From Escherichia phage UB: a stretch of DNA of 64,000 bases. Location of the stretch: the sequence record MH383160. The stretch is one strand, 5' to 3'. The stretch's first letter is position 1. Each line of letters begins with the position of its first letter. Under the pieces are notes generated by a model that searched no databases, was not told the DNA's origin, and saw nothing but the letters and a program-made list of their open reading frames with translations. Below are positions 12,337 through 27,204 of this stretch, one piece after another. The position numbers and the translations under genes are program-made.

Positions 12337-12460
12337 GATTCGTTTCCTTATTACCAGGGGAAACCGTTTCCCCTTGCGATGTAAAACATTATACGCTTAT
12401 TGAGATAGTTTGCAAGTACTTTTTAAAAATAGTTTTCAGTACTCAAACATTATACAATAG

Positions 12461-13429: not shown

Positions 13430-13434
13430 ATTAA

Positions 13435-13707: not shown

Positions 13708-13758
13708 GGTATAATCCCCAATATAAGCGGCCTAAAACGACCGCTAACGATGTTTTGA

Positions 13759-14028: not shown

Positions 14029-14336
14029 TTTAGTTTCCTTAGTTGTCTTGATAAAATCTATTATGCCAGTACTATCAAACTATGTCAATAGTACTGTGAT
14101 AATATTTTTACTTACTTTTTGCTTTCTTAATTGCTTCCACCTGGTCGGCCCATTCTTTACCCCATACTTGTAAATTATAATGGTACTGGCAAAGAGCAAC
14201 GCCCCGCTTTAAACCAGTAATAGATTTTTTACCACATTGACAAGTTTTCATATTAGTTTCCTTGTAGTGGGGAGAATCATTTCTCCCCTTGATGTAATGT
14301 ATTATACTTTATTCGATTTACTTTGCAAGTACTTTT

Positions 14337-14564
14337 TTAATTTAATTCATCCAGGCAAAGGATACGCTCAACGCCCAAATCAGTTAAACTAATGGTCGGC
14401 ACTTGATAGGTTTCAATGTATGCTACAGTTGCCCACTGACCGAACTCATTAACGGCCCAGGTATTCATTGCATTTTGCAATTCCGCACCTGCCTTGTTAG
14501 TAATGACTGCAACTACTTGTTCGTTGCCAGTAGTACCAGATACGCGAGTAATGATAATAGCCAT
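14337..14564 (-). CDS. hypothetical protein (75 aa)
   Basis: Start moved to MAIIITRVSG, downstream of the 5'-UTR hairpin. Confidence 0.5.
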   Translation of the reverse strand: MAIIITRVSGTTGNEQVVAVITNKAGAELQNAMNTWAVNEFGQWATVAYIETYQVPTISLTDLGVERILCLDELN

Positions 14565-14801
14565 TGTTTTGATTCCTTTGATTTGGAAGGAGAACCGTTT
14601 TCCCCTCTCGATGTAAAACATTATACGCTAATCTATTAATCATGCAAGTACTTTTTATTACTTTTTGCAAAATACTTTAAACGCTCTCAATCGCATTCTA
14701 ACGACCTTAACGCCACCAGCTAGGGCGATGTATCAGATAATCAGTTTAATGCGTTAGAATCGATTATAGGCGGTGCTAGTGGACTGGAATACTATAGACA
14801 C

Positions 14802-14828
14802 AAAAAAGCCCACTGTTTAAGGTGGGCT
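14802..14828 (-). terminator. Rho-independent terminator
   Basis: Minus strand AGCCCACCttaaacaGTGGGCT plus TTTTTTG, 3' of 14850..15332; an identical hairpin sits at 15536..15564. Confidence 0.6.
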
Positions 14829-14849
14829 ATTGATTCAGTACTTTAATTG

Positions 14850-15332
14850 TTATGCTTCAACTTTGCGATGAGCTTCGATCCATTCCTCGCGAGTCATACC
14901 GCTTTCTTTGATAGCGTCCAGTACTACCGCAATGCAGTTACCGCGTACAGGAATCAAATGTTCTTCACCGTTATCAAGTACTACAGTAACACGTTCTTGA
15001 ATCCATTTTTTAGGTTTAGATTCTGGCTTATCTTCACCATACTTAACCGCCAGGGCTTTATGTGCCATTTCTACAACTACTTCCAGATCCAATCCAGACA
15101 CTGCCGCCTGGATACTGTCAATTGTTGCTTGCAGTTCGGCTTCACGGGCTTTTTTCTGTTCTTCCAGTTCTGCTACCTTTTTGGCTTGTAATTCTTTCGC
15201 TTCACTGTACGCAATGTTAAAATTGTTGCGTACTGCTTTCATGGTATCGTTATCCAGGTCAGCCAGCAATTCAGCAGCAATAACAGTATCGTTTGAAATC
15301 AGTGCTTTCAGGAATGATTTTACATTAGCCAT
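14850..15332 (-). CDS. hypothetical coiled-coil protein (160 aa)
   Basis: Start at MANVKSF; Ala/Glu/Lys-rich helical middle; hairpin terminator downstream at 14802..14828. Confidence 0.55.
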   Translation of the reverse strand: MANVKSFLKALISNDTVIAAELLADLDNDTMKAVRNNFNIAYSEAKELQAKKVAELEEQKKAREAELQATIDSIQAAVSGLDLEVVVEMAHKALAVKYGEDKPESKPKKWIQERVTVVLDNGEEHLIPVRGNCIAVVLDAIKESGMTREEWIEAHRKVEA

Positions 15333-15535
15333 TTTATAAATCCTCAATTAAAGTTTAGTTTACGTTTATTAGTGTATCAAAGTTTTTTTGACGTGTCCAG
15401 TTTTTCGTTCGACTTACTGGCGGTCTACTTAGTGCTCCCCGTCTTGATGTAATACATTCTACGCCTTTTTGCGGTATTGTCAACTACTTTTTTAAAACTA
15501 TTTTCAAAGTATCTCAGTACTACAATACTACAAAA

Positions 15536-15564
15536 ATAAAAAAGCCCACTGTTTAAGGTGGGCT
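15536..15564 (-). terminator. Rho-independent terminator
   Basis: Same hairpin as 14802..14828, followed by a T run on the minus strand, 3' of 15582..15881. Confidence 0.6.
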
Positions 15565-15581
15565 AGTGATTCAGTACTATA

Positions 15582-15881
15582 TTATAAACAGTTAATTACT
15601 CCGGTGTGCGTTACTTTCTCAGTATCCATAACCGTGACCGATCCACGCTTAGTACTTGCATCATAATAAATTGTTGTGCTACCGTTTTCGTCTTCTTCAT
15701 GGAACGGGCCGTTTTTAAATGCTTCTGGTTGGATCTCTAAATCCTTTAAAACAATCTCGCCCGTACTTTCATTGGTCATCGCAACAGTGCACTGAATGAA
15801 TTTTTCACTACTCACATCTAACGACGCATTAACAGCGAAAGAGGAAACAGATAAAGCCAGGGCGATGATTGCAATTTTCAT
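15582..15881 (-). CDS. putative secreted protein with signal peptide (99 aa)
   Basis: N-terminus MKIAIIALALSVSSFAVNA is a typical Sec signal peptide; terminator downstream. Confidence 0.55.
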   Translation of the reverse strand: MKIAIIALALSVSSFAVNASLDVSSEKFIQCTVAMTNESTGEIVLKDLEIQPEAFKNGPFHEEDENGSTTIYYDASTKRGSVTVMDTEKVTHTGVINCL

Positions 15882-15965
15882 TTGATTATCCTTAGTTACT
15901 AGGGGGAACCTCTCCCCCGTGCTATGTAAAATATTATACAGTACTAAAAACTAATTGCAAGTACT

Positions 15966-16202
15966 TTATGATTTTTTATAAAACATTTCGGCAGTGATAT
16001 TTTTACCCGTTGGTTGTACTTTATCCAGAATTTTTTGATGCCCAGGCCGTCCAAATGAATATGATCCGTAAACCGTAAACCAGTAGTTACCCTCAGTGTT
16101 TACATGTACAGCACAATAGGGAACGCCCCGCGATTCATCACTAGTAAAGTGTGCTACCGTTCCCGTTACATTCGAAGTCGTTGATTTGATTTGTTCAAGC
16201 AT
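15966..16202 (-). CDS. hypothetical protein (78 aa)
   Basis: ORF; promoter plus hairpin cassette upstream. Confidence 0.5.
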   Translation of the reverse strand: MLEQIKSTTSNVTGTVAHFTSDESRGVPYCAVHVNTEGNYWFTVYGSYSFGRPGHQKILDKVQPTGKNITAEMFYKKS

Positions 16203-16445
16203 TTTCTTATTCCTTAGTTACCAGGGGAACCGCTCCCCCTATGCAAAACATTATACGCGTTTAAAAACTAATAGCAAGTATTTTAATAAAAAGTATTTGA
16301 AAAATAATTGTTGACAACTGCATCCAGTACTGGCATAATACTTATATAAAGACGATACAGTCACTAACCCACAGGGTGCCGAGATCCGTCTATTAAATGA
16401 TTCAGTACTGAAAAAGTAACGGGGAGTTATTATCTCCCCGCGTTG

Positions 16446-16667
16446 TTATTTGGTAAGGTATAAACAGAAGTCACCTTTATTTGCTACGCCGCCAGTGTAA
16501 CGCGATGAATAGTTAGAAATATCTTGTACTTCTGCTATTACCAGTGTATCATCATTCATTTCGTCGCAGAAGCAAACGGCTGGATCTTTAACGCCGATAT
16601 TGTCGGCATGTTCCCGCATAGATTTAACCAGTGCTTCCAGTTGAGAAAGAGTAGTGATATTAGCCAT
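16446..16667 (-). CDS. hypothetical protein (73 aa)
   Basis: Start moved to MANITTL, downstream of the hairpin. Confidence 0.5.
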   Translation of the reverse strand: MANITTLSQLEALVKSMREHADNIGVKDPAVCFCDEMNDDTLVIAEVQDISNYSSRYTGGVANKGDFCLYLTK

Positions 16668-16752
16668 TGTATTTTCCTCATTACCAGGGAGAACCATTTC
16701 TCCCCTCTATGTAAAACATTATACAGTACTAAAAACTAATTGCAAGTACTTT

Positions 16753-16941
16753 TTAATTAAATTCCATAAAATCATTCTCAACGTGCACAACAATCTGATT
16801 ATTTTTAAAGTCCGCAGAAAACTCAATACAATCATATACTGCTTTTTCTGTTACCATACTATGAGTACCAATCGGATTAATAGGGGATTGAATTGTTTCA
16901 ATCTCGTTACCTTGTTCATTAACAATTAAAATATTAAACAT
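16753..16941 (-). CDS. hypothetical protein (62 aa)
   Basis: ORF; GGAGTAAAAG SD and TATAAT-containing promoter upstream. Confidence 0.5.
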   Translation of the reverse strand: MFNILIVNEQGNEIETIQSPINPIGTHSMVTEKAVYDCIEFSADFKNNQIVVHVENDFMEFN

Positions 16942-16996
16942 AACTTTTACTCCTGATAGTGTTTACCTGATATAAAGTATTATACGCCTTTATTGC

Positions 16997-17203
16997 TTAG
17001 TGTCCAGTACTTTTTAAAACATAATCAAAGACACTTCTCACATCATTGATCATCGCCTGGCGGTTAGCAGGTAAAGCATCAGGATCACCACTATCCCAAG
17101 CCTGTATGAAGCCTCCAAGCTCTGAATAAACTTTATTACGCAATCCGATTAACTGTAATTCTTTTTCTTCAAGCTCTTTGATACGTTCAATTAAATCACT
17201 CAT
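16997..17203 (-). CDS. hypothetical protein (68 aa)
   Basis: Start moved to MSDLIERIKEL with AAGGA SD. Confidence 0.45.
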   Translation of the reverse strand: MSDLIERIKELEEKELQLIGLRNKVYSELGGFIQAWDSGDPDALPANRQAMINDVRSVFDYVLKSTGH

Positions 17204-17220
17204 TAGATAATCCTTAGTAC

Positions 17221-17508
17221 TTAACTGTAAGATCCGCAACGGTCGCAGTAGTGCCCGTCTTCCTCGTCATCGTCAACGAATTGCCCGACGAAATGATCTA
17301 CTTTCGCTTTCAGGTTATTATAATCGTTTTCTACTTCCTTTAATCGTTCCTGGTAGTATTCCAGTGCCTCAAGATACGCCGCCTCAGCAGTTTTTGCACG
17401 CATAGCTAAATTCATGCCACGCGATTCATCATAAAGCCAATAACCATCAGTGCACTGGCTAATAGATAATGACTTGCTTAATACTGTATAGCTAATTACT
17501 TTGCTCAT
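17221..17508 (-). CDS. hypothetical protein with C-terminal CxxC (95 aa)
   Basis: Start moved to MSKVISY with GAGGAA SD; C-terminal HYCDRCGSYS. Confidence 0.5.
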   Translation of the reverse strand: MSKVISYTVLSKSLSISQCTDGYWLYDESRGMNLAMRAKTAEAAYLEALEYYQERLKEVENDYNNLKAKVDHFVGQFVDDDEEDGHYCDRCGSYS

Positions 17509-17563
17509 TAGATATTCCTCAGTAAAGGCGGGAACCATTCCCCGCCATTATCTCAGTACTAAA

Positions 17564-18175
17564 TTAATATGCGATTGATTCTACTACGCCATCAATAACA
17601 TTGAATTGATACTCGTTACCCTCGATCAGTGCCGTGATGTTCTCAGTAGTGAATTGATCCTCATATGCATTCTCTAAATCACGGTACAACTTGCGGGATA
17701 ATTCACGAATAGTTTCAGTGAGTAGTTCCTCAAGCTCATTAACTAACGTTTCTTGTTTTGCGGTTAAATCAGTGTAAGCCGATTCAATGTACCCGCTTAC
17801 AGTATTCTCATGCGAGTAGTGGGAGTGAGAACGCTTTACACTCATCGGCAAATCATCTTCATTCAGCAGGTGACGGATTGAGCGATACTTAGTTAATGCT
17901 CTTACCTTGCGTAAAAACTTCACTGCGTCAACGTGGTCAGTACTGATTGATGCACCGTCACCTTGCGACCAAAAACCACTGAATCGTAAATCTGCGTCAT
18001 TAATGCCATATTCCGGTAGTACTGTTTCTTTATAGTATTCAATTTCACTTTCAGAAAAATAATCATCGTTTAAGTTTTTTTCACGTTCCCGAACCAGTTC
18101 GATAGCTGACGTTTGTTGTTCTGCGTTCAATTCAGAAAAAGCCATAACATAAGTAGTAGTAGTGATAGTTTTCAT
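17564..18175 (-). CDS. hypothetical acidic protein (203 aa)
   Basis: ORF; promoter upstream; strongly acidic. Confidence 0.55.
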   Translation of the reverse strand: MKTITTTTYVMAFSELNAEQQTSAIELVREREKNLNDDYFSESEIEYYKETVLPEYGINDADLRFSGFWSQGDGASISTDHVDAVKFLRKVRALTKYRSIRHLLNEDDLPMSVKRSHSHYSHENTVSGYIESAYTDLTAKQETLVNELEELLTETIRELSRKLYRDLENAYEDQFTTENITALIEGNEYQFNVIDGVVESIAY

Positions 18176-18476
18176 TTTGTAACCCTCATTCAGTAGTTGA
18201 TGTAAGTATTATACGCTTTTAAAAACAATTGTCAAACTATTTTATCAGGGGAGTTTTTCGTGTGCCTTACTCCTGGGCTACTTAACGGGGAGTTACTTAT
18301 TTCGTCCCCCGTCCTGATGTAAAACATTATACGCCTTTAAACATAGTTTGCAAGTACTTTTTGAAAAATAGTTTTTAATCACTTTTATATAGATACACTC
18401 CCGCACCCTATGGGCTATCGCCTTGTGTCCGGCTTGTAAGTATTATCTCACTAAGCCGGATAATGGTCAAGTACTT

Positions 18477-18743
18477 TTATTCAAGTACTGCTATCTTTTT
18501 AGTACTGTACACAGTAACACGGTTGCCCTTGCGGTCGTGCTTTATTTCTACCACTCGACGCGATACACTATCAGGACTTTTTAACGCCGATAACCAGTAC
18601 TGTAAGGATCTGGCTGTACTTTGCTTTACTACCGCCCAACGTTTACCACGTTCCGATTGCACGCCCATATCTTTAAACGTTGCCCCGTCCTGGCGAGCGG
18701 CGATCCGAGCTTGTTCACGCGTTGCAAAGTATATAATATTCAT
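18477..18743 (-). CDS. hypothetical protein, paralog of 6767..7171 (88 aa)
   Basis: Start moved to MNIIYFATREQ; shares FATRE..AR and HDRKGNRVTVYS with 6767..7171. Confidence 0.5.
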   Translation of the reverse strand: MNIIYFATREQARIAARQDGATFKDMGVQSERGKRWAVVKQSTARSLQYWLSALKSPDSVSRRVVEIKHDRKGNRVTVYSTKKIAVLE

Positions 18744-18825
18744 GCTGTTATCCCATCGTTGATGTATGAATAAAATCCTATTATAAAGTACTATCACCGT
18801 GCAATAGTACTTTAAATAAATTCTA

Positions 18826-19065
18826 TTACATTCCAACCATTGCAGCACGGATCGCCGTAGTGCTATATTTGAATCCGTCCGGCGTTTTATCTTGTCCAGT
18901 CTGTTCTAAAAATAGCATCATATGACGGGCCGCATCATTGCGATTAGTGTTAGCGGCAATAAAGTCCTGGGCCAACCGGTATAATGATTCATCGTTATTA
19001 ATCCAAAGGCTTACATTCCATTGAGTTTTGTTAGCGTGACCTAAGAACATTTTTGATTTAGCCAT
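18826..19065 (-). CDS. hypothetical protein (79 aa)
   Basis: ORF; promoter plus hairpin cassette upstream. Confidence 0.5.
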   Translation of the reverse strand: MAKSKMFLGHANKTQWNVSLWINNDESLYRLAQDFIAANTNRNDAARHMMLFLEQTGQDKTPDGFKYSTTAIRAAMVGM

Positions 19066-19163
19066 TTTTAAATCCTCGTTTGATTTGAGGCGGGAATAGT
19101 TCCCGCTCTCGATGTAAAGTATTATACGCTATTTGTTAGTACTGTCAAACTACTTTTTAAAAC

Positions 19164-19526
19164 TTATTCGTAAATCTTGCCACTGTCAGCCCATACCAGG
19201 AAACGAGGCATATTATCCCATGCATCTTGTTTTAAATTTAAACCGTGTAATACTTCTGTACTTTCCATTCCTGGTACTGGTTTACTATACACCGCGAACA
19301 ATTCACCCATATACTGATAAGCCATCGTTAAATCACTTGCGATCATCTTATGGATCATCGCATCAAGCATCACGGTAGCGGCGTATTGTTCACGCTTAAG
19401 CGGTAACATTGCAATAAGTTCCCGATAAGCTGAAATGTGAATTTTTACCGTTTCTGCCGGAAGATCTTTCATCTCGTCGCGGAAGTTAACCAGGTTAGCA
19501 ATAATTTTATTGATTTGAGTAGCCAT
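19164..19526 (-). CDS. hypothetical protein (120 aa)
   Basis: Start moved to MATQINKII, downstream of the hairpin. Confidence 0.5.
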   Translation of the reverse strand: MATQINKIIANLVNFRDEMKDLPAETVKIHISAYRELIAMLPLKREQYAATVMLDAMIHKMIASDLTMAYQYMGELFAVYSKPVPGMESTEVLHGLNLKQDAWDNMPRFLVWADSGKIYE

Positions 19527-20299
19527 CGTTTTAATCTCTCTTAAAGTGTAGCGGGAAGTGTTCCCGCTCTCGATGTAAAACATTCTACACCTTTCCCAAT
19601 ACTTTGCAAGTACTTTCTACAAATACTTTTAAAATAGTTTTCTTTCTATATAGGAGTACTATCATTCAGTACTGCTACACTAGAATCAATCAACCAAATC
19701 ACTACTATACCCCATAAAACGGCCTCAGACGCATTCTAACGCATTAATACACCTAAGCTATACATTTGCACCGCCACCAGCTAACCAGGGCTTTACGATG
19801 CGTTTAAACGCGTTAAATTATTTTCAATTATTTTGTTTTTTGCTATTGACTCAGTACTAAAAAAGCGTATAATTACTACATAGACGCGAGAAAGCGGATA
19901 TCCCAAGGGGTGCGGAATTGTGCCCAAAATTCAAGATATAAAAAAAAGGATACACTCCCGCACCCTAGCAGGTCAAAGCACTTTCTCAGTACTGAATCAT
20001 AGTACCATAGTACGCCCCAGGATGGCAAGCAAATTAATTAAAACTTTTTTCATCCAGGGTATTGCTTTATTTTTCCAGTACTGTATAATAGTTTCATCAA
20101 GTCGAGAAAGACTATAGCCCACCGGGTGCATAGTTACGCCCAAAATTTCAGTACTAGATTATTTTTTAAAAATATTCATCCAGGCGGTTGACATTGCCCC
20201 CAGTTTATTAGATAATGATTCCAGATTCAGAAAAATCTAACTCCAGATACTGCGGGGAAACTATCCCCACGCGGTAGGGGAACTATTGGAAAAAAACAA

Positions 20300-20470
20300 A
20301 ATAAAATTTTGATTTAGCCGTCTATACTTCCAGACGTGTAACCATCTAGCCGTTTAGCCGTCCAAACGTCTAGCCATACAGCCATCCAGAAATCTAGCCG
20401 TTTAGCCGTCTAGATAGATAGCCATCTTTACTTCCAGACTTCTGGAGGGCTAGACATATCTACGTCCAAA
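20300..20470. repeat. Iteron-like short direct repeats
   Basis: TCTAGCCGTTTAGCCGTC twice, TAGCCAT twice, TACTTCCAGAC twice, CGCCCAAAAT three times, within a 1.9-kb stretch free of ORFs. Confidence 0.5.
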
Positions 20471-21492
20471 ATCCATCCAGGGTAACTACGCCCAAAATCC
20501 GTCAGTACTATACCATAGATCTATCTTTTGAAAGGGAGTATTCAGTACTGCCACAATAGCCCTCACTGTTACTGTAGGAGGATGAAGACTATCATGTAGT
20601 ACTGAATACTGTTAGAGGGAACCCACCAGCTTGTGCTGGTGGCATAATGCTTTAGATTAAAATCAGTACTAATACCATTCTGTTAATATCAGTACTGTTA
20701 TTACGATTTTCATATGAGGTTCAAAAAGATGTACCACCACAGGAGGAACTATCTTTTCTGTACTGTCTCACGACAGGAGGTAGAGTAAATGAATTGTTCG
20801 CAGCAACTCATCTCTCTATGTAGAACATTATACAGTACTGAATCATAATGTCAATAGCTTTCTTTCATTATTCAGTACTGATATTCTTGAGAACTACCCG
20901 ACTACAAACATCATTATATCCCACAAATCATAAACGTCCCAACGTAAATTTCAACTTTCGAAGATCCAACTTTTATTTCATAGGTACTCCAAAATTTTTA
21001 GGATCGAGATTTAGGATGGAGTACTAACCAACTTTTTGCTGGAGCCTCAAGGGGTAATGGAATTTTACCCCGAAGGGTAAAGGGGTAATTGAAATTAAGG
21101 TGAAAGTAATAATTCAGTACTAATCATTGCGTGATTACTTTTGATTACATTTGATGTAATTTGAAAAATGGAAAAGGAGCTTGGAAACTACAAAGTACGG
21201 CAGACTTCCTCTGCCTACTTAGTGGCATATTAGTACTGAATCATTCACACACATTTCCGTGCATTCTTGAGCAATCTTGTCTATACTAATCAGTACTGAA
21301 TCATATATAATCATTCTGTGATTCTACGGTGCTCATATAAATGTTTATATATGATTACTTATGACTACCTATGATTACGGGGTTTAGCCTGGGGAGAATC
21401 CTAGTGATCGCATTTGTCCAGGCTGAATTTTAACAATTCGCCTGTACATAAAGGTTGTTCACTAGGAGCTTCCCCTGTCTACTTGTGTTTAA

Positions 21493-21693
21493 TTACTTCC
21501 TATATATAAGCATTAAGATATAGTAGTACTGATTGTACTGTACATTCTCTTTAATATTATAAGGGTCTATAGCAATCTCGGTACATCTGTTAAATGCATA
21601 TCTATTAAATGCCAGTGGAATTATAGATCTAATCCATACTTGTTCATTTTCTTTTAGTTTACTTATATAGAAGTTTTTATACTCTTTATGCAT
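21493..21693 (-). CDS. Family-A small protein (66 aa)
   Basis: N-terminus MHKEYKNFY and C-terminal YYILMLIYRK as in the neighbouring paralogs. Confidence 0.55.
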   Translation of the reverse strand: MHKEYKNFYISKLKENEQVWIRSIIPLAFNRYAFNRCTEIAIDPYNIKENVQYNQYYYILMLIYRK

Positions 21694-21706
21694 AGTATTA
21701 TGTCTA

Positions 21707-21889
21707 TTAATATGATAGTACTAGTGTTAGTACTGAGCACAATTTTTCTTTATAGTTCTTAGGGTATATAGAATCTTTTATGCACTCATTGAAGTGCCAT
21801 AGGTATAATCTTGGGTCGCATTCTTTATATATTCTTACGGGGACGAATGTTAGTTTTCTTATATAGAATTCTTTATGTTCTTTATTCAT
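21707..21889 (-). CDS. Family-A small protein (60 aa)
   Basis: MNKEHKEFYIRKL; C-terminal hydrophobic tail. Confidence 0.55.
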   Translation of the reverse strand: MNKEHKEFYIRKLTFVPVRIYKECDPRLYLWHFNECIKDSIYPKNYKEKLCSVLTLVLSY

Positions 21890-21890
21890 A

Positions 21891-22079
21891 TTAGTACCTG
21901 AATATAAGTAGGATTATGTTATAGTACTGGTTAGTACTGCAATGATTCTCTATACATCGATTAACAGTTATGGAATAGCTATATCTGGCGTAAGCATTAT
22001 CCAGCGGGATTTTACATTGAGCACTTAGAGAAAGTACAGTAGGTAGTGTATTCAAATAGAAGTCTTTGTAATTATTCAT
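21891..22079 (-). CDS. Family-A small protein (62 aa)
   Basis: MNNYKDFYLNTL ... YYNIILLIFRY. Confidence 0.55.
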   Translation of the reverse strand: MNNYKDFYLNTLPTVLSLSAQCKIPLDNAYARYSYSITVNRCIENHCSTNQYYNIILLIFRY

Positions 22080-22281
22080 ACAGGAATAGTATACCTATGA
22101 TGCCGGAGTACAGGTTAGTACTGTTACCATCTTCATTTGCGTTTAAAGTCATTTGAATACAATTATTGTAGCATACTCTGCCGAAATATGTATTAGTACT
22201 TAAAGGTGGTGTAGTCCTTAGAAACATTTGTTCTGAGGGGCTTATGTATTTGGAGTAGAATTCTTTATGTTCTTTATTCAT
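22072..22281 (-). CDS. Family-A small protein (69 aa), close paralog of 25255..25464
   Basis: MNKEHKEFYSKYISPSEQMFLR ... matches MNTEHKEFYTKYLSNEEQLFLR of 25255..25464. Confidence 0.6.
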   Translation of the reverse strand: MNKEHKEFYSKYISPSEQMFLRTTPPLSTNTYFGRVCYNNCIQMTLNANEDGNSTNLYSGIIGILFLYE

Positions 22282-22286
22282 ATTAG

Positions 22287-22472
22287 TTAGTGTCTGTATA
22301 TAAGTAATAGTAAGAATACGTACTGCACATCTTCATCTTTAGTATTGAGTACTGTACGTATTGCGTCATGGAACAAGAATATAGTACTTGGGTCATGAAA
22401 ATTTAAAGGGGTTCTGGGTACGGCACATTTGTAGTTCCCTTTAACAAATTGTGTGTAGTATTCTCTATGCAT
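22287..22472 (-). CDS. Family-A small protein (61 aa)
   Basis: MHREYYTQF ... LLLLIYRH. Confidence 0.55.
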   Translation of the reverse strand: MHREYYTQFVKGNYKCAVPRTPLNFHDPSTIFLFHDAIRTVLNTKDEDVQYVFLLLLIYRH

Positions 22473-22473
22473 A

Positions 22474-22659
22474 TTAGTACCTATATATTAGGGCGAGAAT
22501 GTAGTACAATTCATATGGAATGTAATTTGGGGTGATCGCACACTGTGTATGGTAAATGAATTGTTCGGTATTTTTCTTATCCTTGATATCTATTGGGATT
22601 TGTGGTATAAGCATTTGGGAGTTTAGATCGAGATGGCTTAAGTAGAATTCTTTATGCAT
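22474..22659 (-). CDS. Family-A small protein (61 aa)
   Basis: MHKEFYLSHL ... YYILALIYRY. Confidence 0.55.
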   Translation of the reverse strand: MHKEFYLSHLDLNSQMLIPQIPIDIKDKKNTEQFIYHTQCAITPNYIPYELYYILALIYRY

Positions 22660-22668
22660 ATTGTTCTC

Positions 22669-22857
22669 TTAGAATACGAAAGCTAGGTACAGGGTATGAT
22701 ACAGTACTCGATGATAGCTGTCAAAATCTAGTATACATGCTTTAGTACACATAGTAAAATACACTTTATCATTTTGTGCATTGATACCGCGAGGTTTATC
22801 TAATAGATTAGTTCTGAGGTACATTGGGAAATATTTTGTGTAGTATTCTTTATGCAT
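22669..22857 (-). CDS. Family-A small protein (about 62 aa)
   Basis: Start moved to the internal MHKEYYTKYF that matches the family N-terminus. Confidence 0.5.
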   Translation of the reverse strand: MHKEYYTKYFPMYLRTNLLDKPRGINAQNDKVYFTMCTKACILDFDSYHRVLYHTLYLAFVF

Positions 22858-22858
22858 G

Positions 22859-23041
22859 TTAGTACCTGAATATAAGTAGGATAGTGTTATATAGCTGGTC
22901 ATAACTACTACTATTTTCTATACTTCGTTCTATGCAGTTATTGAATCCAAGTACTGCCAAATCGTTATCCAGAGGGACTTTATATCTGGCGTAGTGTTCA
23001 AAAATGCTGGGGAGAAATTGTTTGTAGTATTCTTTGTGCAT
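22859..23041 (-). CDS. Family-A small protein (60 aa)
   Basis: MHKEYYKQF ... ILLIFRY. Confidence 0.55.
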   Translation of the reverse strand: MHKEYYKQFLPSIFEHYARYKVPLDNDLAVLGFNNCIERSIENSSSYDQLYNTILLIFRY

Positions 23042-23051
23042 ATTGTTCTCT

Positions 23052-23240
23052 TTAGTACTTGAATATTAGGGCGAGGATGTAATACAGTTTATATGTTCTA
23101 TCCTCGTACATTAGGGTGTACTTAGTACATTCTTGGAACATTGTTTTTGCGTCATCTTTTATGCCCAATGTAACGTTTGGTATAAGGCTTTGTAGATACA
23201 TTGGGAGTTTCTCTATGTAGTATTCTTTATAGTTGTTCAT
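23052..23240 (-). CDS. Family-A small protein (62 aa)
   Basis: MNNYKEYYIEKLPMYLQ ... YYILALIFKY. Confidence 0.55.
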   Translation of the reverse strand: MNNYKEYYIEKLPMYLQSLIPNVTLGIKDDAKTMFQECTKYTLMYEDRTYKLYYILALIFKY

Positions 23241-23248
23241 ATTATGTG

Positions 23249-23428
23249 TTATTTCGTGAAAACAAGGGTTAGTACTGCATAGTACAAGTCATACGTATCT
23301 TTAGGGTTAATAGCACCTTTAATACATTCTTTCATTAATTCATTATAGATAATTTTAGTACTGAAGGTATTGGATGTTACTATATCGGAATTAAGGTACG
23401 ACAAGTAGAATTCTTTATGTTTGTGCAT
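23249..23428 (-). CDS. Family-A small protein (59 aa; absent from the ORF track, below its size cut-off)
   Basis: Hand translation of the minus strand gives MHKHKEFYLSYL...DLYYAVLTLVFTK. Confidence 0.45.
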   Translation of the reverse strand: MHKHKEFYLSYLNSDIVTSNTFSTKIIYNELMKECIKGAINPKDTYDLYYAVLTLVFTK

Positions 23429-23429
23429 A

Positions 23430-23615
23430 TTAGTACTTATATATTAGTAAAAGGATGTGATACAGTACTCGATTATAGTCTTCAATATATATCGAGGATT
23501 TAGTGCACTGAATGAAGTAGTCTTTTTCGTAGTTTTTTTCTATACCCAATGGTTCTGTTGGTAGAAGGTGTTGGAGATACATTGGGAGTTTCTCTATGTA
23601 GTATTCTTTATGCAT
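23430..23615 (-). CDS. Family-A small protein (61 aa)
   Basis: Start moved to MHKEYYIEKLPMYLQ; paralog of 23052..23240. Confidence 0.5.
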   Translation of the reverse strand: MHKEYYIEKLPMYLQHLLPTEPLGIEKNYEKDYFIQCTKSSIYIEDYNRVLYHILLLIYKY

Positions 23616-24273
23616 AGTTTGTAATATACGTAATGAGGTGATGCATTTTCTTATTAGTACTGATAATTTCCTGTACATGTTTTGTCAGATTGTACGCGTT
23701 TTTATAGAGTACTGGATTATCGATTACAGTACTGTACATGAATAGTTCTTCTTCCTGTAGTTCTTTGTGTTCTAGTTCTTTGAGGAATTGCAGTACTGTA
23801 TCAGTTTCGTCAGTAGGTTGTGCTTGCCAGAAGTGCATTTTCTCGTGTACTTTTTCTGATCCTACGTAGTATCCATCACCGATTTGGAATTGAGCACTAC
23901 TGATATCATTTGGTGTATTACAATTCACGAATAGGTATACGTTTCCATAAGAGATATTCAAAACACACGGGATACCATTTAACTGTATAGTTAAGCCGAA
24001 ATATACGTTTTTTATATTTTTAGTACTAGTATTAGTACTCAATACTTTTAAATCAGTATTATAGATATTCGCATAATCAATAGAGATATTATTTTTCTTC
24101 AAGTACGATTTGAGGTTCTTAGATACGAGAACTGTACTGAATTTATCCTTTTTATTTCGTTTCTTTAGTACATTAGGGTGATAAGTATATGAAGATGTAA
24201 CTGATTCTGCTTGAATACTGTTGAGGTACTTAAAGTGCTTAAGGTATTGTTTACTGTGTGCATTAAGTTTCAT
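23608..24273 (-). CDS. hypothetical protein (221 aa) inserted in the Family-A array
   Basis: Long ORF, no family motifs, no recognisable domain. Confidence 0.55.
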   Translation of the reverse strand: MKLNAHSKQYLKHFKYLNSIQAESVTSSYTYHPNVLKKRNKKDKFSTVLVSKNLKSYLKKNNISIDYANIYNTDLKVLSTNTSTKNIKNVYFGLTIQLNGIPCVLNISYGNVYLFVNCNTPNDISSAQFQIGDGYYVGSEKVHEKMHFWQAQPTDETDTVLQFLKELEHKELQEEELFMYSTVIDNPVLYKNAYNLTKHVQEIISTNKKMHHLITYITNYA

Positions 24274-24283
24274 TTGGTTTCCT

Positions 24284-24463
24284 TTATATAGATGCCAGGG
24301 CGAGGATTTCCCTGTAGGGATTATCTTGTGTTAGTACAGAATAAATGCAGCTATTGAGATTAATATTTTTAGTACTTTTTGTTCCTAGTTTGTAGTAATC
24401 AACGAATGTGTCGTACATGAAACGGTCTTTTATGGTTATACGTTCTATATAGAATTGTTGCAT
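24284..24463 (-). CDS. Family-A-like small protein (59 aa; absent from the ORF track)
   Basis: Hand translation MQQFYIERITIKDRFMYDTFVDYYKL... Confidence 0.4.
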   Translation of the reverse strand: MQQFYIERITIKDRFMYDTFVDYYKLGTKSTKNINLNSCIYSVLTQDNPYREILALASI

Positions 24464-24471
24464 AGTATTCC

Positions 24472-24654
24472 TTATATAGAGATTAGTTTCATTACTTCTC
24501 TGTATGTGTACTTTTCGTTTTGTGCATCTCTTGTGACGACATATAGGAAGGTGTGTTTATCTTTTTTGTTCCCGCAATTGTAGAAAATATTGAACTTATT
24601 GAAGTTGAATCTTTCGGCGTGTTGTAGTTTAGTTAAATAGAATTCTATGTTCAT
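24472..24654 (-). CDS. Family-A small protein, subtype KYTYR (60 aa)
   Basis: MNIEFYLTKL ... KYTYREVMKLISI; paralog of 24663..24848. Confidence 0.55.
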   Translation of the reverse strand: MNIEFYLTKLQHAERFNFNKFNIFYNCGNKKDKHTFLYVVTRDAQNEKYTYREVMKLISI

Positions 24655-24662
24655 TTTATTCC

Positions 24663-24848
24663 TTACATTTCAATAAGTTTAAGTACTGCTCGGTACGTGT
24701 ACTTAGTTGTCAGTGCTTCTTTAATAGAAACACAGAAGTAATGTTTTTTGTCTCTTATACTGCCGCGTTTGTAGTACCACACATGGGAGTTGTGACTGTA
24801 CTTGTCTCTGTCGGATAGTTGTTGGTAGTAGTAGCTTATATGATTCAT
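24663..24848 (-). CDS. Family-A small protein, subtype KYTYR (61 aa)
   Basis: MNHISYYYQQL ... KYTYRAVLKLIEM. Confidence 0.55.
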   Translation of the reverse strand: MNHISYYYQQLSDRDKYSHNSHVWYYKRGSIRDKKHYFCVSIKEALTTKYTYRAVLKLIEM

Positions 24849-25057
24849 TATAATGTAATTAGCCTTACTATATTAAAGTACTCGGTTCCTGGTGTACCTT
24901 GTAGTATATTACGCACGACATTTTTTTGGTGCTGGATGATTGCTGAAGGTGCGGTTCTTTTTAGTTTTTTTAAAGTACTGAATTCTTGTTTAAGTATGAA
25001 CTGTACATCTTTAGGGAGAATATCTATGTAGTACTGATGAATGTTTGTAGTTTTCAT
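24848..25057 (-). CDS. Family-A small protein, subtype YYID (69 aa)
   Basis: ..QYYIDILPKDVQ.. paralog of 25466..25669. Confidence 0.55.
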   Translation of the reverse strand: MKTTNIHQYYIDILPKDVQFILKQEFSTLKKLKRTAPSAIIQHQKNVVRNILQGTPGTEYFNIVRLITL

Positions 25058-25067
25058 ATAGCACCTT

Positions 25068-25262
25068 TTAGAACTTAAAGATGAGGTTCAGGATAGAGCG
25101 GTACTTAGTTTCAGGGAACTGATGTTCTATTGCATAACGTGTCGCCATCCTGAAATCGTAATTGTAATATAGATTATCCTTTCTCATAGGTGGTGCTAAA
25201 GAGAATGATAGCTGGTCTTGCTTGTGTAGTTTACTACCATAGAAATCTTTATGATTATTCAT
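25068..25262 (-). CDS. Family-A small protein (64 aa)
   Basis: MNNHKDFYGSKL ... ILNLIFKF. Confidence 0.55.
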   Translation of the reverse strand: MNNHKDFYGSKLHKQDQLSFSLAPPMRKDNLYYNYDFRMATRYAIEHQFPETKYRSILNLIFKF

Positions 25263-25464
25263 AGAAGTAGATTAGTCCTATTAAACCTGAGTACATAATA
25301 TTTTTGTTATTGCATTCGATTGCTTCTAGAGTACTACGTATACAATTATTAAAGCAATCTCTACCGAATTGAGTATTGGTACTTACAGGTGATACACTCC
25401 TTAGAAACAATTGTTCTTCGTTGCTAAGGTATTTGGTGTAGAATTCTTTATGTTCAGTATTCAT
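25255..25464 (-). CDS. Family-A small protein (69 aa), close paralog of 22072..22281
   Basis: Alignable over its full length with 22072..22281. Confidence 0.6.
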   Translation of the reverse strand: MNTEHKEFYTKYLSNEEQLFLRSVSPVSTNTQFGRDCFNNCIRSTLEAIECNNKNIMYSGLIGLIYFYE

Positions 25465-25465
25465 A

Positions 25466-25669
25466 TTAGTACTCGATTAATAGGGTAAGGATGTAATAGT
25501 ATTGCATACATTCTACCCCTTGTAAAGCATTTCTTATGTTATTATTCCTGTACGAGTTCAGGAGTTTAGGGCTACGTTTGAGGTGTTTGAAATTAGTTTG
25601 TGTATGCAGTAGGCTTTCACGTAGACCTTTTGTTGGTAGTGCATCGATGTAGTACTGTTCGATATTCAT
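25466..25669 (-). CDS. Family-A small protein, subtype YYID (67 aa)
   Basis: MNIEQYYIDALPTKGL ... YYILTLLIEY. Confidence 0.55.
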   Translation of the reverse strand: MNIEQYYIDALPTKGLRESLLHTQTNFKHLKRSPKLLNSYRNNNIRNALQGVECMQYYYILTLLIEY

Positions 25670-25893
25670 ATAGATAGCAGTACTAAGATTTTTGATAATT
25701 GTTTATTGCTATCCCCGCAGATGTTGCTGTGTAAAATACTCACAATGAGGGTATCAATTGCATTGTTCATCATAAGGGTGCATCCTGGACTATTATAATT
25801 TTTTAGCTCAATTAGCCACGAACTATCCGAGAGAAATTCCCCGTACTCTAGTTCATTTAGAGTATTGAGGTAGTACTTAAGAGTATTTGTCAT
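25666..25893 (-). CDS. Family-A-like small protein (75 aa), first gene of the array
   Basis: MTNTLKYYLNTL...; AAGGAG SD and TTGACA promoter upstream on the minus strand. Confidence 0.5.
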   Translation of the reverse strand: MTNTLKYYLNTLNELEYGEFLSDSSWLIELKNYNSPGCTLMMNNAIDTLIVSILHSNICGDSNKQLSKILVLLSI

Positions 25894-25995
25894 GTGTAGT
25901 TCTCCTTATATTCCTTCTATAGTACACCAGTACTGAAAGGATGTCAAGGGTTTTCTTTATGGGGTAAATATGATATAATGAATAAGGAGGGAAAT
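25894..25995. promoter_or_regulatory. Divergent promoter region between the Family-A array (-) and the leader-tagged array (+)
   Basis: Minus strand TTGACA...AAGGAG...ATG; plus strand TATAAT (25974..25979), AAGGAGG SD (25984..25990), ATG 25996. Confidence 0.55.
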
Positions 25996-27132
25996 ATGTT
26001 ACCTTTTGCAAGAATGATGAATTATGGGAACGTAGCACCAGATAAACTAAAAATACGTGATATTGTTGCAGGTGCTAATTCATTATTACTAATAACAGAG
26101 GATAATGAATTATGGGTGCGTGGTAATAATGCGTATGGCAAATTAGGTATAGGAACTGATACTATAGTGAATGTAACCGAGTGGACTAAAGTTAGAGATG
26201 ATGTTAAGTTTGCTTGTGCTAGTAATTTAGTATGCGTTGTATTAACTGTAGATAATAAAATTTTATACTGTGGTGATGAATGGTTTGAATCTGGTGGTTC
26301 GACAAGTTCTAAAGTTGTTACATGGAAAGATGTTACGACACAATTTAGTGCAGTGAATCTAAGCACAGTTCGTGAAATGAAAATAACTTATTATTGTGTA
26401 GGATTACTTACAAATGATAATAGATTATATGCTAAAGGATATGATAATAACCAATCATTTGGTGGTTCAACAAGCAAAGTTAATGCTGTATTAGTTGCGT
26501 CAAATGTTTCAAAATTCTACACTTCTCTATCTGGTACTATATATTCTAGTACTACTGGTGGTTACTATCGCTGTGGTATAAGCAATACTGGAGCATTGGG
26601 TACTAGCACAAATTTAACTTCTTATAATTTGTACTCTGCTCCCGAATTTGCATCCGAATGTGCAGTTGGTATGTCAACATTAAACTCTGGTATATTATAT
26701 TATGATACTAATGGTATCACTAGATATGTTATAGCAGGTCAAAATAGAAATTATCAACTAGGTAATTCTTCTTCAAATACCACAAACGTATATTCGTATA
26801 CAGAATTAACCGGATATAGAGGCAGGTTTAGGGATTTGTGGAGTGATATGAATAACTCTGTTCTTTCTTTTGCTATAAGCACAGATGGCAATACTTTATA
26901 TTATGCTGGTACTAACAATACACTATCTTCTGGTGATCCTGGTGTTGAATATTCATCTGCATTCAAAGAAGTACCACACGGGTTTAATGATATAACAAAG
27001 GCGGCATCGTTAGCATATCTATCTATAGTGCAAGATTCAACGGGATGGTATTATTCTGGAAATGCAACTACGTTATATGGTTTGCCATCGAGTGGTGAAT
27101 TTATACCATTACCATTACCAACATTAATTTAA
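25996..27132 (+). CDS. Leader-tagged RCC1-like repeat protein, paralog 1 (378 aa)
   Basis: Start at MLPFARMMNYGN, preceded by AAGGAGG; repeated Y..G.N..GQLG-type motifs (KLGIGTD, YAKGYDNNQSFGGST, NYQLGNSS). Confidence 0.85.
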   Translation: MLPFARMMNYGNVAPDKLKIRDIVAGANSLLLITEDNELWVRGNNAYGKLGIGTDTIVNVTEWTKVRDDVKFACASNLVCVVLTVDNKILYCGDEWFESGGSTSSKVVTWKDVTTQFSAVNLSTVREMKITYYCVGLLTNDNRLYAKGYDNNQSFGGSTSKVNAVLVASNVSKFYTSLSGTIYSSTTGGYYRCGISNTGALGTSTNLTSYNLYSAPEFASECAVGMSTLNSGILYYDTNGITRYVIAGQNRNYQLGNSSSNTTNVYSYTELTGYRGRFRDLWSDMNNSVLSFAISTDGNTLYYAGTNNTLSSGDPGVEYSSAFKEVPHGFNDITKAASLAYLSIVQDSTGWYYSGNATTLYGLPSSGEFIPLPLPTLI

Positions 27133-27138
27133 ATATAG

Positions 27139-27169
27139 GCCAGTACTTGATACTGGCTTTCTTTTTTTT
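27139..27169 (+). terminator. Rho-independent terminator of the cassette
   Basis: GCCAGTACttgaTACTGGC followed by TTTCTTTTTTTT; recurs with near-identical sequence after paralogs 2, 3, 4, 5, 6, 8, 10 and 11. Confidence 0.7.
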
Positions 27170-27170
27170 G

Positions 27171-27204
27171 TATTAAATATAGTATAATGAATAAGGAGGG
27201 ATTT
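27171..27204 (+). promoter_or_regulatory. Cassette promoter (-10 TATAAT) plus SD
   Basis: TATTAAATATAGTATAATGAATAAGGAGG then ATG; no clear TTGACA -35; identical module before most paralogs. Confidence 0.55.

What the first reader, a model, noticed from the sequence alone, without database searches (positions are those of the whole stretch)
21493..25893. Minus-strand array of about 19 paralogous ~60-aa proteins
Back-to-back genes of 59-77 aa share an N-terminal M-[HN]-K-E-[HY]-x-x-F-Y block and a hydrophobic C-terminal tail (..YYILALIYRY, ..ILLIFRY), with clear sub-families (KYTYR..KLI pair; YYID pair; 22072/25255 pair). There are almost no intergenic gaps, so it is one long transcript from the promoter at about 25.9 kb. 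A 221-aa unrelated gene is inserted mid-array. Such a dense family suggests a diversified set of small binders or inhibitors.
Basis: seen in the sequence. Interest (0 to 1): 0.7.

Follow-up and report, generated by a model that had tools for sequence, protein, structure and literature searches.

The report
Tandem small-protein family in jumbo phage
A giant E. coli phage carries about 19 back-to-back copies of one fast-evolving family of tiny helical proteins in what looks like an early operon next to its terminal repeat; they are probably host-takeover or anti-defence binders, but no function has been tested.

Summary
Window 21493-25893 (minus strand) holds 19 small ORFs (59-75 aa) plus one 221-aa ORF, with gaps of -8 to +13 nt. 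Thirteen form a solid family (PHROG 11711, unknown function). The KYTYR trio and the YYID pair join it by profile-profile comparison (P 3e-8 and 2e-7; shuffles P >= 0.06). The first gene is only a probable member.

The window comes from an Asteriusvirus (121Q/PBECO4/G17-like, about 350 kb). The array occurs in every relative examined, always with the 221-224-aa gene in the middle. Copy number is 14-20 and units are gained or lost one at a time.

The genes are under purifying but relaxed selection (pooled pN/pS 0.44). Against phage JNE01 they are 27-61% identical, while flanking genes are 82-95% identical.

An AlphaFold2 model is confident (pLDDT 90) and all-helical, with no transmembrane segment and no structural or sequence relative outside this phage group.

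The array starts at a conserved sigma-70-type promoter and ends about 270 bp from the terminal-repeat boundary. Its promoter type and codon usage match the repeat's presumed early genes, not the neighbouring RCC1-like genes.

Best reading: an early operon of diversified small binders or inhibitors. Function is inferred, not shown.

The parts
25919..25947 (-). Sigma-70-type promoter of the array: TTGACATCCTTTCAGTACTGGTGTACTAT. It carries the phage-specific CAGTACTG spacer element.
   Evidence: Consensus scans. The -35 box, the -10 box and the downstream TAAGGAGAA ribosome-binding site are conserved in 8 phages.
25666..25893 (-). Gene 1, 75 aa. Probable divergent family member with an insertion of about 11 residues. 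It has the strongest ribosome-binding site of the array.
   Evidence: hhalign P 1.6e-4 to YYID and 5.6e-4 to the pooled profile, against a best shuffle of 0.048. Homologues occur only in Asteriusvirus-type contigs.
25466..25669 (-). Gene 2, 67 aa, YYID sub-family.
   Evidence: phmmer 2e-10 to 24848-25057. Sub-family linked to the core at P 2.1e-7.
25255..25464 (-). Gene 3, 69 aa, core family. Closest paralogue is 22072-22281.
   Evidence: phmmer 4e-29. phrog_11711 E 1.7e-12.
25068..25262 (-). Gene 4, 64 aa, core family.
24848..25057 (-). Gene 5, 69 aa, YYID sub-family.
24663..24848 (-). Gene 6, 61 aa, KYTYR sub-family.
   Evidence: phmmer 1.6e-10 to 24472-24654. Sub-family linked to the core at P 2.8e-8.
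24472..24654 (-). Gene 7, 60 aa, KYTYR sub-family.
24284..24463 (-). Gene 8, 59 aa, KYTYR sub-family.
23608..24273 (-). 221-aa gene (phrog_29152, unknown function). Conserved mid-array member of the operon, with no detectable relation to the small family.
   Evidence: PHROG hit 1.4e-115. Present in every array examined. Its C-terminal 58 aa score no better than shuffles against the family HMM: 57/500 and 19/500 shuffles reach the real score. The AF2 model is unusable, pLDDT 40.5.
23430..23615 (-). Gene 10, 61 aa, core family. The ORF extends upstream to 23678, and its start overlaps the 221-aa gene's stop by 8 nt. This is the protein used for the structure model.
   Evidence: phrog_11711 E 3.6e-28.
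23249..23428 (-). Gene 11, 59 aa, core family.
23052..23240 (-). Gene 12, 62 aa, core family.
22859..23041 (-). Gene 13, 60 aa, core family.
22669..22857 (-). Gene 14, 62 aa, core family. The ORF extends upstream to 22902.
22696..22724 (-). Candidate internal promoter inside gene 14: TTGACAGCTATCATCGAGTACTGTATCAT.
   Evidence: It lies in coding sequence (it encodes FDSYHRVLYH), so its conservation cannot be separated from protein constraint.
22474..22659 (-). Gene 15, 61 aa, core family.
22287..22472 (-). Gene 16, 61 aa, core family.
22072..22281 (-). Gene 17, 69 aa, core family.
21891..22079 (-). Gene 18, 62 aa, core family.
21707..21889 (-). Gene 19, 60 aa, core family.
21493..21693 (-). Gene 20, 66 aa, core family. 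Last cistron of the array.
21180..21492 (-). Gene-free, strongly structured stretch downstream of the array. It ends in a weak terminator-like hairpin at 21215..21199. The inner boundary of the terminal repeat maps at about 21219.
   Evidence: RNA fold z-score -4.97, with 0 of 100 shuffles as stable. Hairpin. The end of the G17 record (370,817) aligns to window position 21219.

Best explanation
The array is a polycistronic operon of about 20 tightly packed cistrons in an Asteriusvirus jumbo phage.

**Transcription.** It is probably transcribed early by the host sigma-70 RNA polymerase. Transcription starts at the conserved promoter at 25947..25919 and runs towards the terminal repeat. The close packing suggests the cistrons are translationally coupled.

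**Products.** The operon makes a mixture of soluble helical mini-proteins of 7-8 kDa, plus one 221-aa protein of unknown role. The small proteins share a hydrophobic core and an N-terminal H-K-E-[FY]-Y motif, but differ on their exposed faces and loops.

**Proposed mechanism (inferred).** The paralogues act as stoichiometric binders or inhibitors of different, or allelic, host or defence proteins. This is the host-takeover or anti-defence way of working. The set is renewed by tandem duplication, loss of single units and rapid divergence as the phages meet different E. coli or Salmonella strains.

**Shown here**
- Paralogy of the small proteins.
- Coding constraint.
- Operon anatomy.
- Promoter conservation.
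- Restriction to this phage lineage.
- Turnover of array members between phages.
- The predicted fold.

**Inferred**
- Early timing.
- Binding or inhibition.
- The identity of any target.
For: **Real proteins**
- ORFs are kept open at the same lengths in 9 phages.
- pN/pS is below 1 for every gene (0.15-0.89; pooled 0.44).
- The invariant Tyr is encoded by both TAC (60 times) and TAT (33 times).
- The AF2 model has pLDDT 90.4 and pTM 0.74, with helices at 3-7, 12-15, 28-43 and 47-60.

**Scaffold with a varied surface**
- Low-entropy columns are H2, K3, E4, Y5, Y6, L10, P22, F34, C37, T38, I42, 51-52, 54-55 and 57-59. They recur every three or four residues along helices 3 and 4, i.e. along one face of each helix (residue burial was not measured). 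The other columns are highly variable.

**Soluble**
- The highest 19-residue Kyte-Doolittle mean is 1.2 or less. pI ranges from 4.7 to 10.

**Early class**
- The promoter has a consensus TTGACA box and the CAGTACTG spacer element. About 20 near-consensus minus-strand promoters share this element, about 16 of them in the terminal-repeat region.
- The promoter is conserved in 8 phages.
- Codon usage (C-ending NNY fraction 0.51, GC3 0.37) matches the repeat genes (0.45, 0.40). It does not match the adjacent RCC1-like genes (0.21, 0.23).
- The RCC1-like genes use a different promoter cassette with no -35 box: TAAATATAGTATAATGAATAAGGAGG.
- Terminal-repeat genes are early and transcribed by host RNA polymerase in the distant relative PA5oct (PMC7318152).

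**Not structural**
- The phAPEC6 virion proteome lists RCC1-like gp549 and gp551. In the portion of its table seen here no protein is numbered between gp347 and gp549 (PMC7247149).

**Turnover**
- 40 orthogroups (60% identity) across 9 phages, 14-20 small genes per array, gain and loss in whole units.
- Against JNE01 the array proteins are 27-61% identical and the 224-aa gene 44%. Flanking repeat genes are 87-95% identical and the next RCC1-like gene 82%.

**Lineage-restricted**
- 72 clusters at 90% identity, and 31 true representatives (plus one spurious repeat protein) among 1.84 billion sequences. All are about 60 aa, and those traced lie in Asteriusvirus-type arrays.
Against: - No expression, binding or phenotype data exist for any member.
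- There is no sign of positive selection among close orthologues. pN/pS is 0.46 at conserved columns and 0.58 at variable ones. The divergence could therefore reflect relaxed constraint or recombination rather than an arms race.
- Several cistrons lack a clear ribosome-binding site.
- The promoter assignment rests on consensus and conservation only.
- Early timing is an analogy from distant relatives.
Confidence: 0.45

Rival explanations
1. The small proteins serve the phage itself. They could be DNA-binding or regulatory factors, for example reading the over-represented AGTACT / CAGTACTG motif. Or they could be partners or chaperones of the 11 neighbouring RCC1-like propeller proteins.
For: - The array is transcribed divergently from the RCC1-like array, and the two are adjacent in every relative examined.
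- CAGTACTG occurs 51 times against about 1 expected, and sits in early-type promoters.
- About half of the paralogues are basic, pI 9-10.
- Phage G has roughly 35 copies of a zinc ribbon, proposed as transcription factors or DNA binders (PMC7824862).
Against: - No helix-turn-helix, zinc ribbon or other DNA-binding signature was found in Pfam or NCBIfam.
- Only one Cys is conserved.
- pI ranges from 4.7 to 10.
- The promoter class and codon usage differ from those of the RCC1-like genes.
- No array protein appears in the portion of the phAPEC6 virion table seen, although RCC1-like proteins do.
- One palindromic site would not need about 19 diverged readers.
Confidence: 0.15
2. The array is a dispensable product of repeated unequal recombination. 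The genes are translated but carry little or no specific function and are kept only by weak selection.
For: - Constraint is relaxed: pN/pS 0.44 against 0.13-0.24 in flanking repeat genes.
- Whole units are freely gained and lost.
- There is no signal of positive selection.
Against: - About 9 orthogroups are retained in 7 of the 9 phages.
- The family persists in the very divergent JNE01 and Turkey5 lineage with an entirely different set of members.
- The core and the N-terminal motif stay conserved.
- The promoter and ribosome-binding site stay conserved.
Confidence: 0.15
3. The proteins act on the membrane, as superinfection-exclusion, lysis-timing or toxic peptides, through the hydrophobic C-terminal tail.
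For: The C-terminus is hydrophobic and aromatic (for example ..YYILALIYRY) and the proteins are small.
Against: - No 19-residue stretch reaches a transmembrane-type hydropathy; the maximum is 1.2.
- The tail is the last 14-residue helix of a confidently predicted helical domain.
- It carries conserved positions recurring every three or four residues, as expected for a packing face rather than a membrane span.
Confidence: 0.05
4. The similarity is an artefact of AT-rich composition or of a repeated DNA motif, and the ORFs are not translated.
For: - The sequence is AT-rich, 33-34% GC.
- AGTACT is strongly enriched at the DNA level in all three reading frames. There are 32 copies, against 7.6 +/- 2.4 expected from the protein sequences.
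Against: - Shuffle-controlled profile comparisons.
- pN/pS below 1 in all 19 genes.
- ORF lengths conserved across 9 phages.
- Both synonymous codons used at the invariant Tyr.
- A confident AF2 model.
Confidence: 0.03

Closest known systems
PHROG family phrog_11711 (unknown function)
   Same: The 13 core paralogues match it end to end. The 5 core members scanned gave E from 1.7e-12 to 3.6e-28.
   Different: The PHROG says nothing about function or about tandem organisation. The KYTYR and YYID members scanned, and gene 1, do not hit it at E <= 0.1; they join only by profile-profile comparison.
Early small-gene regions in or next to long terminal repeats: the PA5oct terminal-repeat genes, the suspected early region of phage CBB, and (from my own knowledge) the Bacillus phage SPO1 host-takeover module and the T5 pre-early genes
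   Same: - Many short genes of unknown function.
- Host-type promoters.
- A position in or against the terminal repeat.
- Early timing shown for PA5oct, and early host take-over suspected by the authors for CBB.
   Different: - Those regions hold mostly unrelated genes, each with its own promoter.
- Here a single family is amplified about 19-fold under one main promoter, just outside the repeat.
- There is no sequence homology, and timing has not been measured for any Asteriusvirus.
Anti-CRISPR / anti-defence accessory loci of phages (from my own knowledge)
   Same: - Small soluble proteins with no conserved enzymatic motifs.
- Content differs between closely related phages while the flanks stay conserved.
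- Presumed early expression.
   Different: - No helix-turn-helix regulator of the Aca type is present.
- Such loci usually hold unrelated genes rather than one expanded family.
- No inhibition has been shown.
Lineage-specific expansion of about 35 zinc-ribbon proteins in Bacillus phage G (PMC7824862)
   Same: A jumbo phage carrying tens of copies of one very small protein.
   Different: The fold differs: helical, with no metal-binding Cys or His pattern. Function is unknown in both cases.
Terminal multigene families of large eukaryotic DNA viruses: ASFV MGF families and poxvirus host-range families, the 'genomic accordion' (from my own knowledge)
   Same: - Tandem paralogue arrays close to the genome ends.
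- Copy number varies between isolates.
- Divergence is fast compared with the central genome.
   Different: - A bacterial virus, and much smaller proteins.
- No evidence yet that copy number affects host range.
- This is a resemblance in behaviour only.

Membership tests
phrog_11711 | Significant full-length match to the family HMM | tested here: met
   The 5 core members scanned gave E from 1.7e-12 to 3.6e-28 over the full 62-position profile. The 3 non-core genes scanned (24472, 25466, 25666) had no hit at E <= 0.1.
Single superfamily across the whole array | Profile-profile similarity over the full length, beyond shuffled controls | tested here: met
   Core vs KYTYR P 2.8e-8. Core vs YYID P 2.1e-7. 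Shuffles P >= 0.06.
Single superfamily across the whole array | Gene 1 (25666-25893) belongs to it | tested here: inconclusive
   P 1.6e-4 to YYID (prob 50%) and 5.6e-4 to the pooled profile. Best of 30 shuffles 0.048.
Single superfamily across the whole array | The 221-aa protein contains a family domain | tested here: not met
   hhalign P 0.32. For the C-terminal 58 aa, 57/500 and 19/500 shuffles score at least as well.
Host-RNA-polymerase (sigma-70) early phage operon | Conserved -35 and -10 boxes upstream of the first cistron | tested here: met
   TTGACA-17-TACTAT at 25947..25919. Conserved in 8 phages. Same CAGTACTG spacer element as about 20 near-consensus minus-strand promoters, about 16 of them in the terminal-repeat region.
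Host-RNA-polymerase (sigma-70) early phage operon | Transcripts appear in the first minutes of infection | not testable with these tools
   No Asteriusvirus transcriptome was found. The only support is analogy with PA5oct and CBB.
Anti-defence (Acr-type) locus | Variable content between close relatives, with conserved flanks | tested here: met
   Array proteins 27-61% identical against flanks at 82-95%. Orthogroup matrix.
Anti-defence (Acr-type) locus | Linked helix-turn-helix (Aca-type) regulator | tested here: not met
   No Pfam or NCBIfam domain above the curated cut-off in the 9 array proteins scanned, which included the 221-aa gene.
Anti-defence (Acr-type) locus | Demonstrated inhibition of a defence system | not testable with these tools
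   This needs experiments.
Small membrane proteins (holin, exclusion or toxic peptides) | A transmembrane segment | tested here: not met
   Maximum 19-residue Kyte-Doolittle mean is 1.2 or less. The hydrophobic tail is modelled as the last helix of a confidently predicted helical domain.
DNA-binding or transcription-factor expansion (as with the phage G zinc ribbons) | A recognisable DNA-binding motif | tested here: not met
Virion or internal proteins | Detected in purified particles | not tested
   From the literature only. In the portion of the phAPEC6 virion table seen here, gp549 and gp551 (RCC1-like) are listed and nothing is numbered between gp347 and gp549 (PMC7247149).

The most novel reading that the evidence does not exclude
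Asteriusviruses may carry bacterial-virus counterparts of the terminal multigene families of large eukaryotic DNA viruses.

- Two unrelated tandem families of tiny proteins bracket the roughly 21-kb terminal repeat: the HKEFY family described here and a separate LGTNYQE family.
- They would expand, contract and diverge like a 'genomic accordion'.
- Each paralogue would neutralise a different host defence or host variant.
- Array content would therefore set the phage's host range.
Probability: 0.25. Interest if true: 0.75.

Novelty: new variant of a known kind. Interest (0 to 1): 0.5.

Why it matters
If these proteins are diversified inhibitors, the array is a ready-made library of about 40 sequence types on one small, confidently predicted scaffold. 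Each type may be aimed at a different E. coli or Salmonella target, which makes the array a good place to look for new anti-defence or host-takeover activities. It would also show that phages, like large eukaryotic viruses, use tandem multigene families near their genome ends to adapt to hosts. Asteriusviruses are being proposed for phage therapy, so a locus that may set host range has practical weight.

Tried and rejected
**Fold search with the small-protein model.**
- Foldseek against PDB found nothing at E < 5.
- BFVD returned only family members.
- The afdb50 library was not available.

**Sequence searches.** PDB sequence profiles found nothing. Pfam and NCBIfam found nothing.

**The 221-aa protein.**
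- By eye its N-terminus (HSKQYLKHF) and C-terminus (..EHKEL..HHLITYITNYA) resemble the family. hhalign (P 0.32) and shuffle tests do not support this.
- Its AF2 model failed at pLDDT 40.5, so no fold search was run.

**Positive selection.** Splitting codons into conserved and variable columns gave pN/pS of 0.46 and 0.58, so there is no evidence for it.

**Wider searches.**
- The end of the Cronobacter phage GAP32 record was inspected for an equivalent array. That region is organised differently and I did not pursue it.
- Rfam at gathering threshold found nothing in the window.

**Literature.** Searches found no description of this family, of the array, or of the AGTACT motif.

Full report
**Origin of the window.**
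- A 6-kb stretch around the finding is 92-95% identical to the roughly 350-kb E. coli jumbo phages slurp01, G17, Sharanji, 121Q and relatives of the genus Asteriusvirus.
- All of them annotate the region as runs of 'hypothetical protein'.

**Check of the observation.**
- Between 21493 and 25893 the minus strand carries 19 small ORFs and one 221-aa ORF.
- Two ORFs, listed at 77 and 82 aa, have in-frame upstream ATGs that overlap the preceding gene. The starts that fit the family and the GenBank annotation are 22857 and 23615.
- Gaps between cistrons run from -8 to +13 nt. Many junctions read TAAnATG.

**Is it homology or composition?**
- All-vs-all phmmer resolves four groups:
  - a 13-member core (E from 1e-5 to 7e-29);
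  - a KYTYR trio (24284, 24472, 24663);
  - a YYID pair (24848, 25466);
  - the first gene, 25666-25893, on its own.
- An HMM of the core finds exactly its 13 members among the 321 ORFs of the window. Five of the next six hits are the other array genes.
- I enriched each group with orthologues from eight related phages. hhalign then links the core to KYTYR (prob 95%, P 2.8e-8) and to YYID (94%, P 2.1e-7) over the full length.
- Column-shuffled controls give P >= 0.06. Reversed alignments match only 8-9 columns.
- The first gene aligns colinearly, with a [K]YY-x-x-L start and a hydrophobic ..ILVLLSI end, but only at P 1.6e-4 to 5.6e-4. The best of 30 shuffles was 0.048. I call it a probable member.
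- The 221-aa protein is not detectably related.

**Are they real genes?**
- The ORFs stay open at the same lengths in nine phages.
- Nei-Gojobori comparison with orthologues gives pN/pS below 1 for all 19 genes (0.15-0.89; pooled 0.44).
- The invariant tyrosine is encoded by both TAC and TAT.
- Flanking terminal-repeat genes show tighter constraint, 0.13-0.24. The 221-aa gene (0.47) and the RCC1-like genes (0.29-0.57) resemble the array.

**What the proteins look like.**
- AlphaFold2 with a 52-sequence alignment gives a confident model: pLDDT 90.4 and pTM 0.74, with two short N-terminal helices (3-7, 12-15), a loop, and a helical hairpin (28-43, 47-60).
- Conserved columns are the N-terminal H-K-E-[FY]-Y motif, L10, P22, and positions recurring every three or four residues along helices 3 and 4 (F34, C37/T38, I42; 51-52, 54-55, 57-59). 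This spacing places them along one face of each helix; burial was not measured. The loop and the remaining helix positions are highly variable.
- There is no transmembrane-type segment. pI ranges from 4.7 to 10, and tyrosine makes up 10.6% of residues.
- No informative structural or sequence relative was found.
- The core equals PHROG 11711, of unknown function.

**Distribution and dynamics.**
- A word-indexed search of 5.8 billion proteins found 72 clusters.
- An exhaustive HMM scan of 1.84 billion representatives found 32 hits, one of them a spurious repeat protein. All the others are about 60 aa.
- tblastn finds the family in 35 phage records, all Escherichia or Salmonella phages of 310-386 kb; every one whose record I retrieved is an Asteriusvirus.
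- The most divergent members sit in the same kind of array, with the 224-aa gene and next to RCC1-like genes.
- Across nine phages there are 14-20 small genes per array and 40 orthogroups at 60% identity. About nine orthogroups are shared by seven phages, and differences are whole units.
- JNE01 and Turkey5 carry an entirely different set of members.
- Against JNE01 the array proteins are 27-61% identical and the mid-array gene 44%. The adjacent repeat genes are 87-95% identical and the next RCC1-like gene 82%. The array is therefore a divergence hot spot between conserved flanks.
- I found no evidence of positive selection: pN/pS is 0.46 at conserved columns and 0.58 at variable ones.

**Genomic setting and expression class.**
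- The right end of the G17 record aligns to window position 21219.
- G17 has terminal redundancies of about 20 kb (PMC6563267). fEgEco12 has a 20,993-bp direct terminal repeat confirmed by restriction digests (PMC13070987).
- The array is therefore the first transcription unit inside the unique region. It lies about 270 bp from the repeat boundary and is transcribed towards the repeat.
- Its upstream promoter is TTGACA-17-TACTAT at 25947..25919. The promoter is conserved in eight phages together with the TAAGGAGAA ribosome-binding site.
- The promoter carries a CAGTACTG element in its spacer. About 20 near-consensus minus-strand promoters carry the same element, about 16 of them within the repeat region.
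- The divergent RCC1-like genes instead share a cassette with no -35 box, TAAATATAGTATAATGAATAAGGAGG, usually placed after a terminator hairpin.
- Codon usage groups the array with the repeat genes (C-ending NNY fraction 0.51 and 0.45). It separates both from the RCC1-like genes (0.21) and from the 40-62 kb genes (0.29).
- In the distant relative PA5oct the repeat genes are early and depend on the host polymerase (PMC7318152).
- In CBB, RpoD-like promoters mark a region of short hypothetical genes suspected to be early host-takeover genes, and three of them lie on the terminal repeat (PMC5259590).
- In the portion of the phAPEC6 virion table seen here, two RCC1-like proteins are listed and nothing is numbered between gp347 and gp549 (PMC7247149).
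- No terminator-like site lies on the coding strand within the array.
- A promoter-like site at 22724..22696 lies inside gene 14.
- The 313 nt downstream of the array fold unusually well (z -4.97) and end in a weak hairpin at the repeat boundary.

**Interpretation.**
- Best supported: an early, host-polymerase-driven operon of closely packed, probably translationally coupled cistrons. It delivers a mixture of small soluble helical proteins built on one scaffold with varied surfaces.
- The most likely mode of action is stoichiometric binding or inhibition of host or defence proteins, with the set renewed by duplication, loss and divergence.
- My confidence by step:
  - a real, translated family: about 0.9;
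  - early timing: about 0.65;
  - binder or inhibitor function: about 0.45.
- The rivals are set out in the Rival explanations section with evidence for and against:
  - a phage-internal role in DNA binding or as partners of the RCC1-like proteins;
  - near-neutral amplification;
  - membrane action;
  - artefact.

**Novelty.** The family is catalogued (PHROG 11711, GenBank hypotheticals) but uncharacterised. I found no paper that describes the array. Clusters of small early genes and lineage-specific expansions are known in phages. A tandem family of roughly 19 members under one promoter, turning over between close relatives, is an unusual variant of that theme.

Noticed in passing
whole window; densest at 1.8-21.3 kb; examples 20827-20854, 11371-11398, 9218-9245, 4790-4817, 49896-49923, 61162-61189: The palindromic octamer CAGTACTG occurs 51 times against about 1 expected. 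It sits in the spacer of about 20 near-consensus sigma-70-type promoters on the minus strand, TTGACA-N8-9-AGTACTG-TATAAT. It may be an operator for a phage regulator of the early promoters. No literature was found.
   Followed up: partly
whole window and all related loci (L001-L013): The hexamer AGTACT occurs 275 times in 64 kb, against about 22 expected from base composition. In the array genes there are 32 copies, against 7.6 +/- 2.4 when synonymous codons are resampled, spread over all three reading frames. In the RCC1-like genes there are 35 against 11.0 +/- 3.2. This indicates DNA-level selection for the motif across the genus; the cause is unknown.
   Followed up: partly
window about 176-1500 (ORFs 176-394, 391-603, 600-815); L003 124-4053 (G17 record 346,123-350,052): A second, unrelated tandem array lies on the other side of the terminal repeat and ends about 100 bp before it. 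It has at least 18 paralogous proteins of 52-87 aa with the motif ..LGTNYQE.. and 4-nt overlaps. All-vs-all phmmer gives E from 1e-5 to 1e-21. It is not related to the HKEFY family.
   Followed up: partly
window about 1509-21219: This stretch corresponds to the roughly 20.7-kb direct terminal repeat of G17-type genomes (PMC13070987). It holds dozens of short minus-strand genes, many with their own promoter and terminator. These include a GNAT acetyltransferase (9871-10227, Pfam 4e-9) and a weak, sub-threshold kinase-like match (5263-5904).
   Followed up: partly
window 19600-21492: A gene-free stretch of about 1.9 kb, not annotated in G17 or 121Q. It spans the repeat boundary at about 21219 and is rich in free-standing AGTACT copies and promoter-like sites on both strands (19846-19873 +, 20062-20089 +, 20188-20216 +, 20827-20854 -). 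The part from 21180 to 21495 folds with z -4.97. There is no Rfam match.
   Followed up: partly
window 25996-38998 (+), perhaps to 40222: An array of 11 paralogous RCC1-like (WD40_RLD) propeller genes. Most are preceded by a terminator hairpin and the conserved cassette TAAATATAGTATAATGAATAAGGAGG. Two homologues are virion proteins in phAPEC6. The true start of the first gene is probably 25996 rather than 25978, which is the ATG listed by the ORF listing.
   Followed up: partly
window 22001-26000: The array's coding strand has more C than G (GC skew -0.19), unlike every other gene set in the window (+0.08 to +0.19). The cause is a shortage of GNN codons (Gly, Ala, Val, Asp and Glu total about 18%) together with a preference for TTC and TAC.
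   Followed up: yes
window 12973-13000, 13202-13229, 15933-15960, 16718-16745; also 2958-2986, 5216-5244, 8483-8511, 12509-12537: Identical or near-identical 28-29-nt promoter-like cassettes are repeated inside the terminal repeat. TTGCAATTAGTTTTTAGTACTGTATAAT occurs four times. TTGACTCCGGTCAGTCCCTTTGCTATTAT occurs three to four times, with small variations.
   Followed up: no
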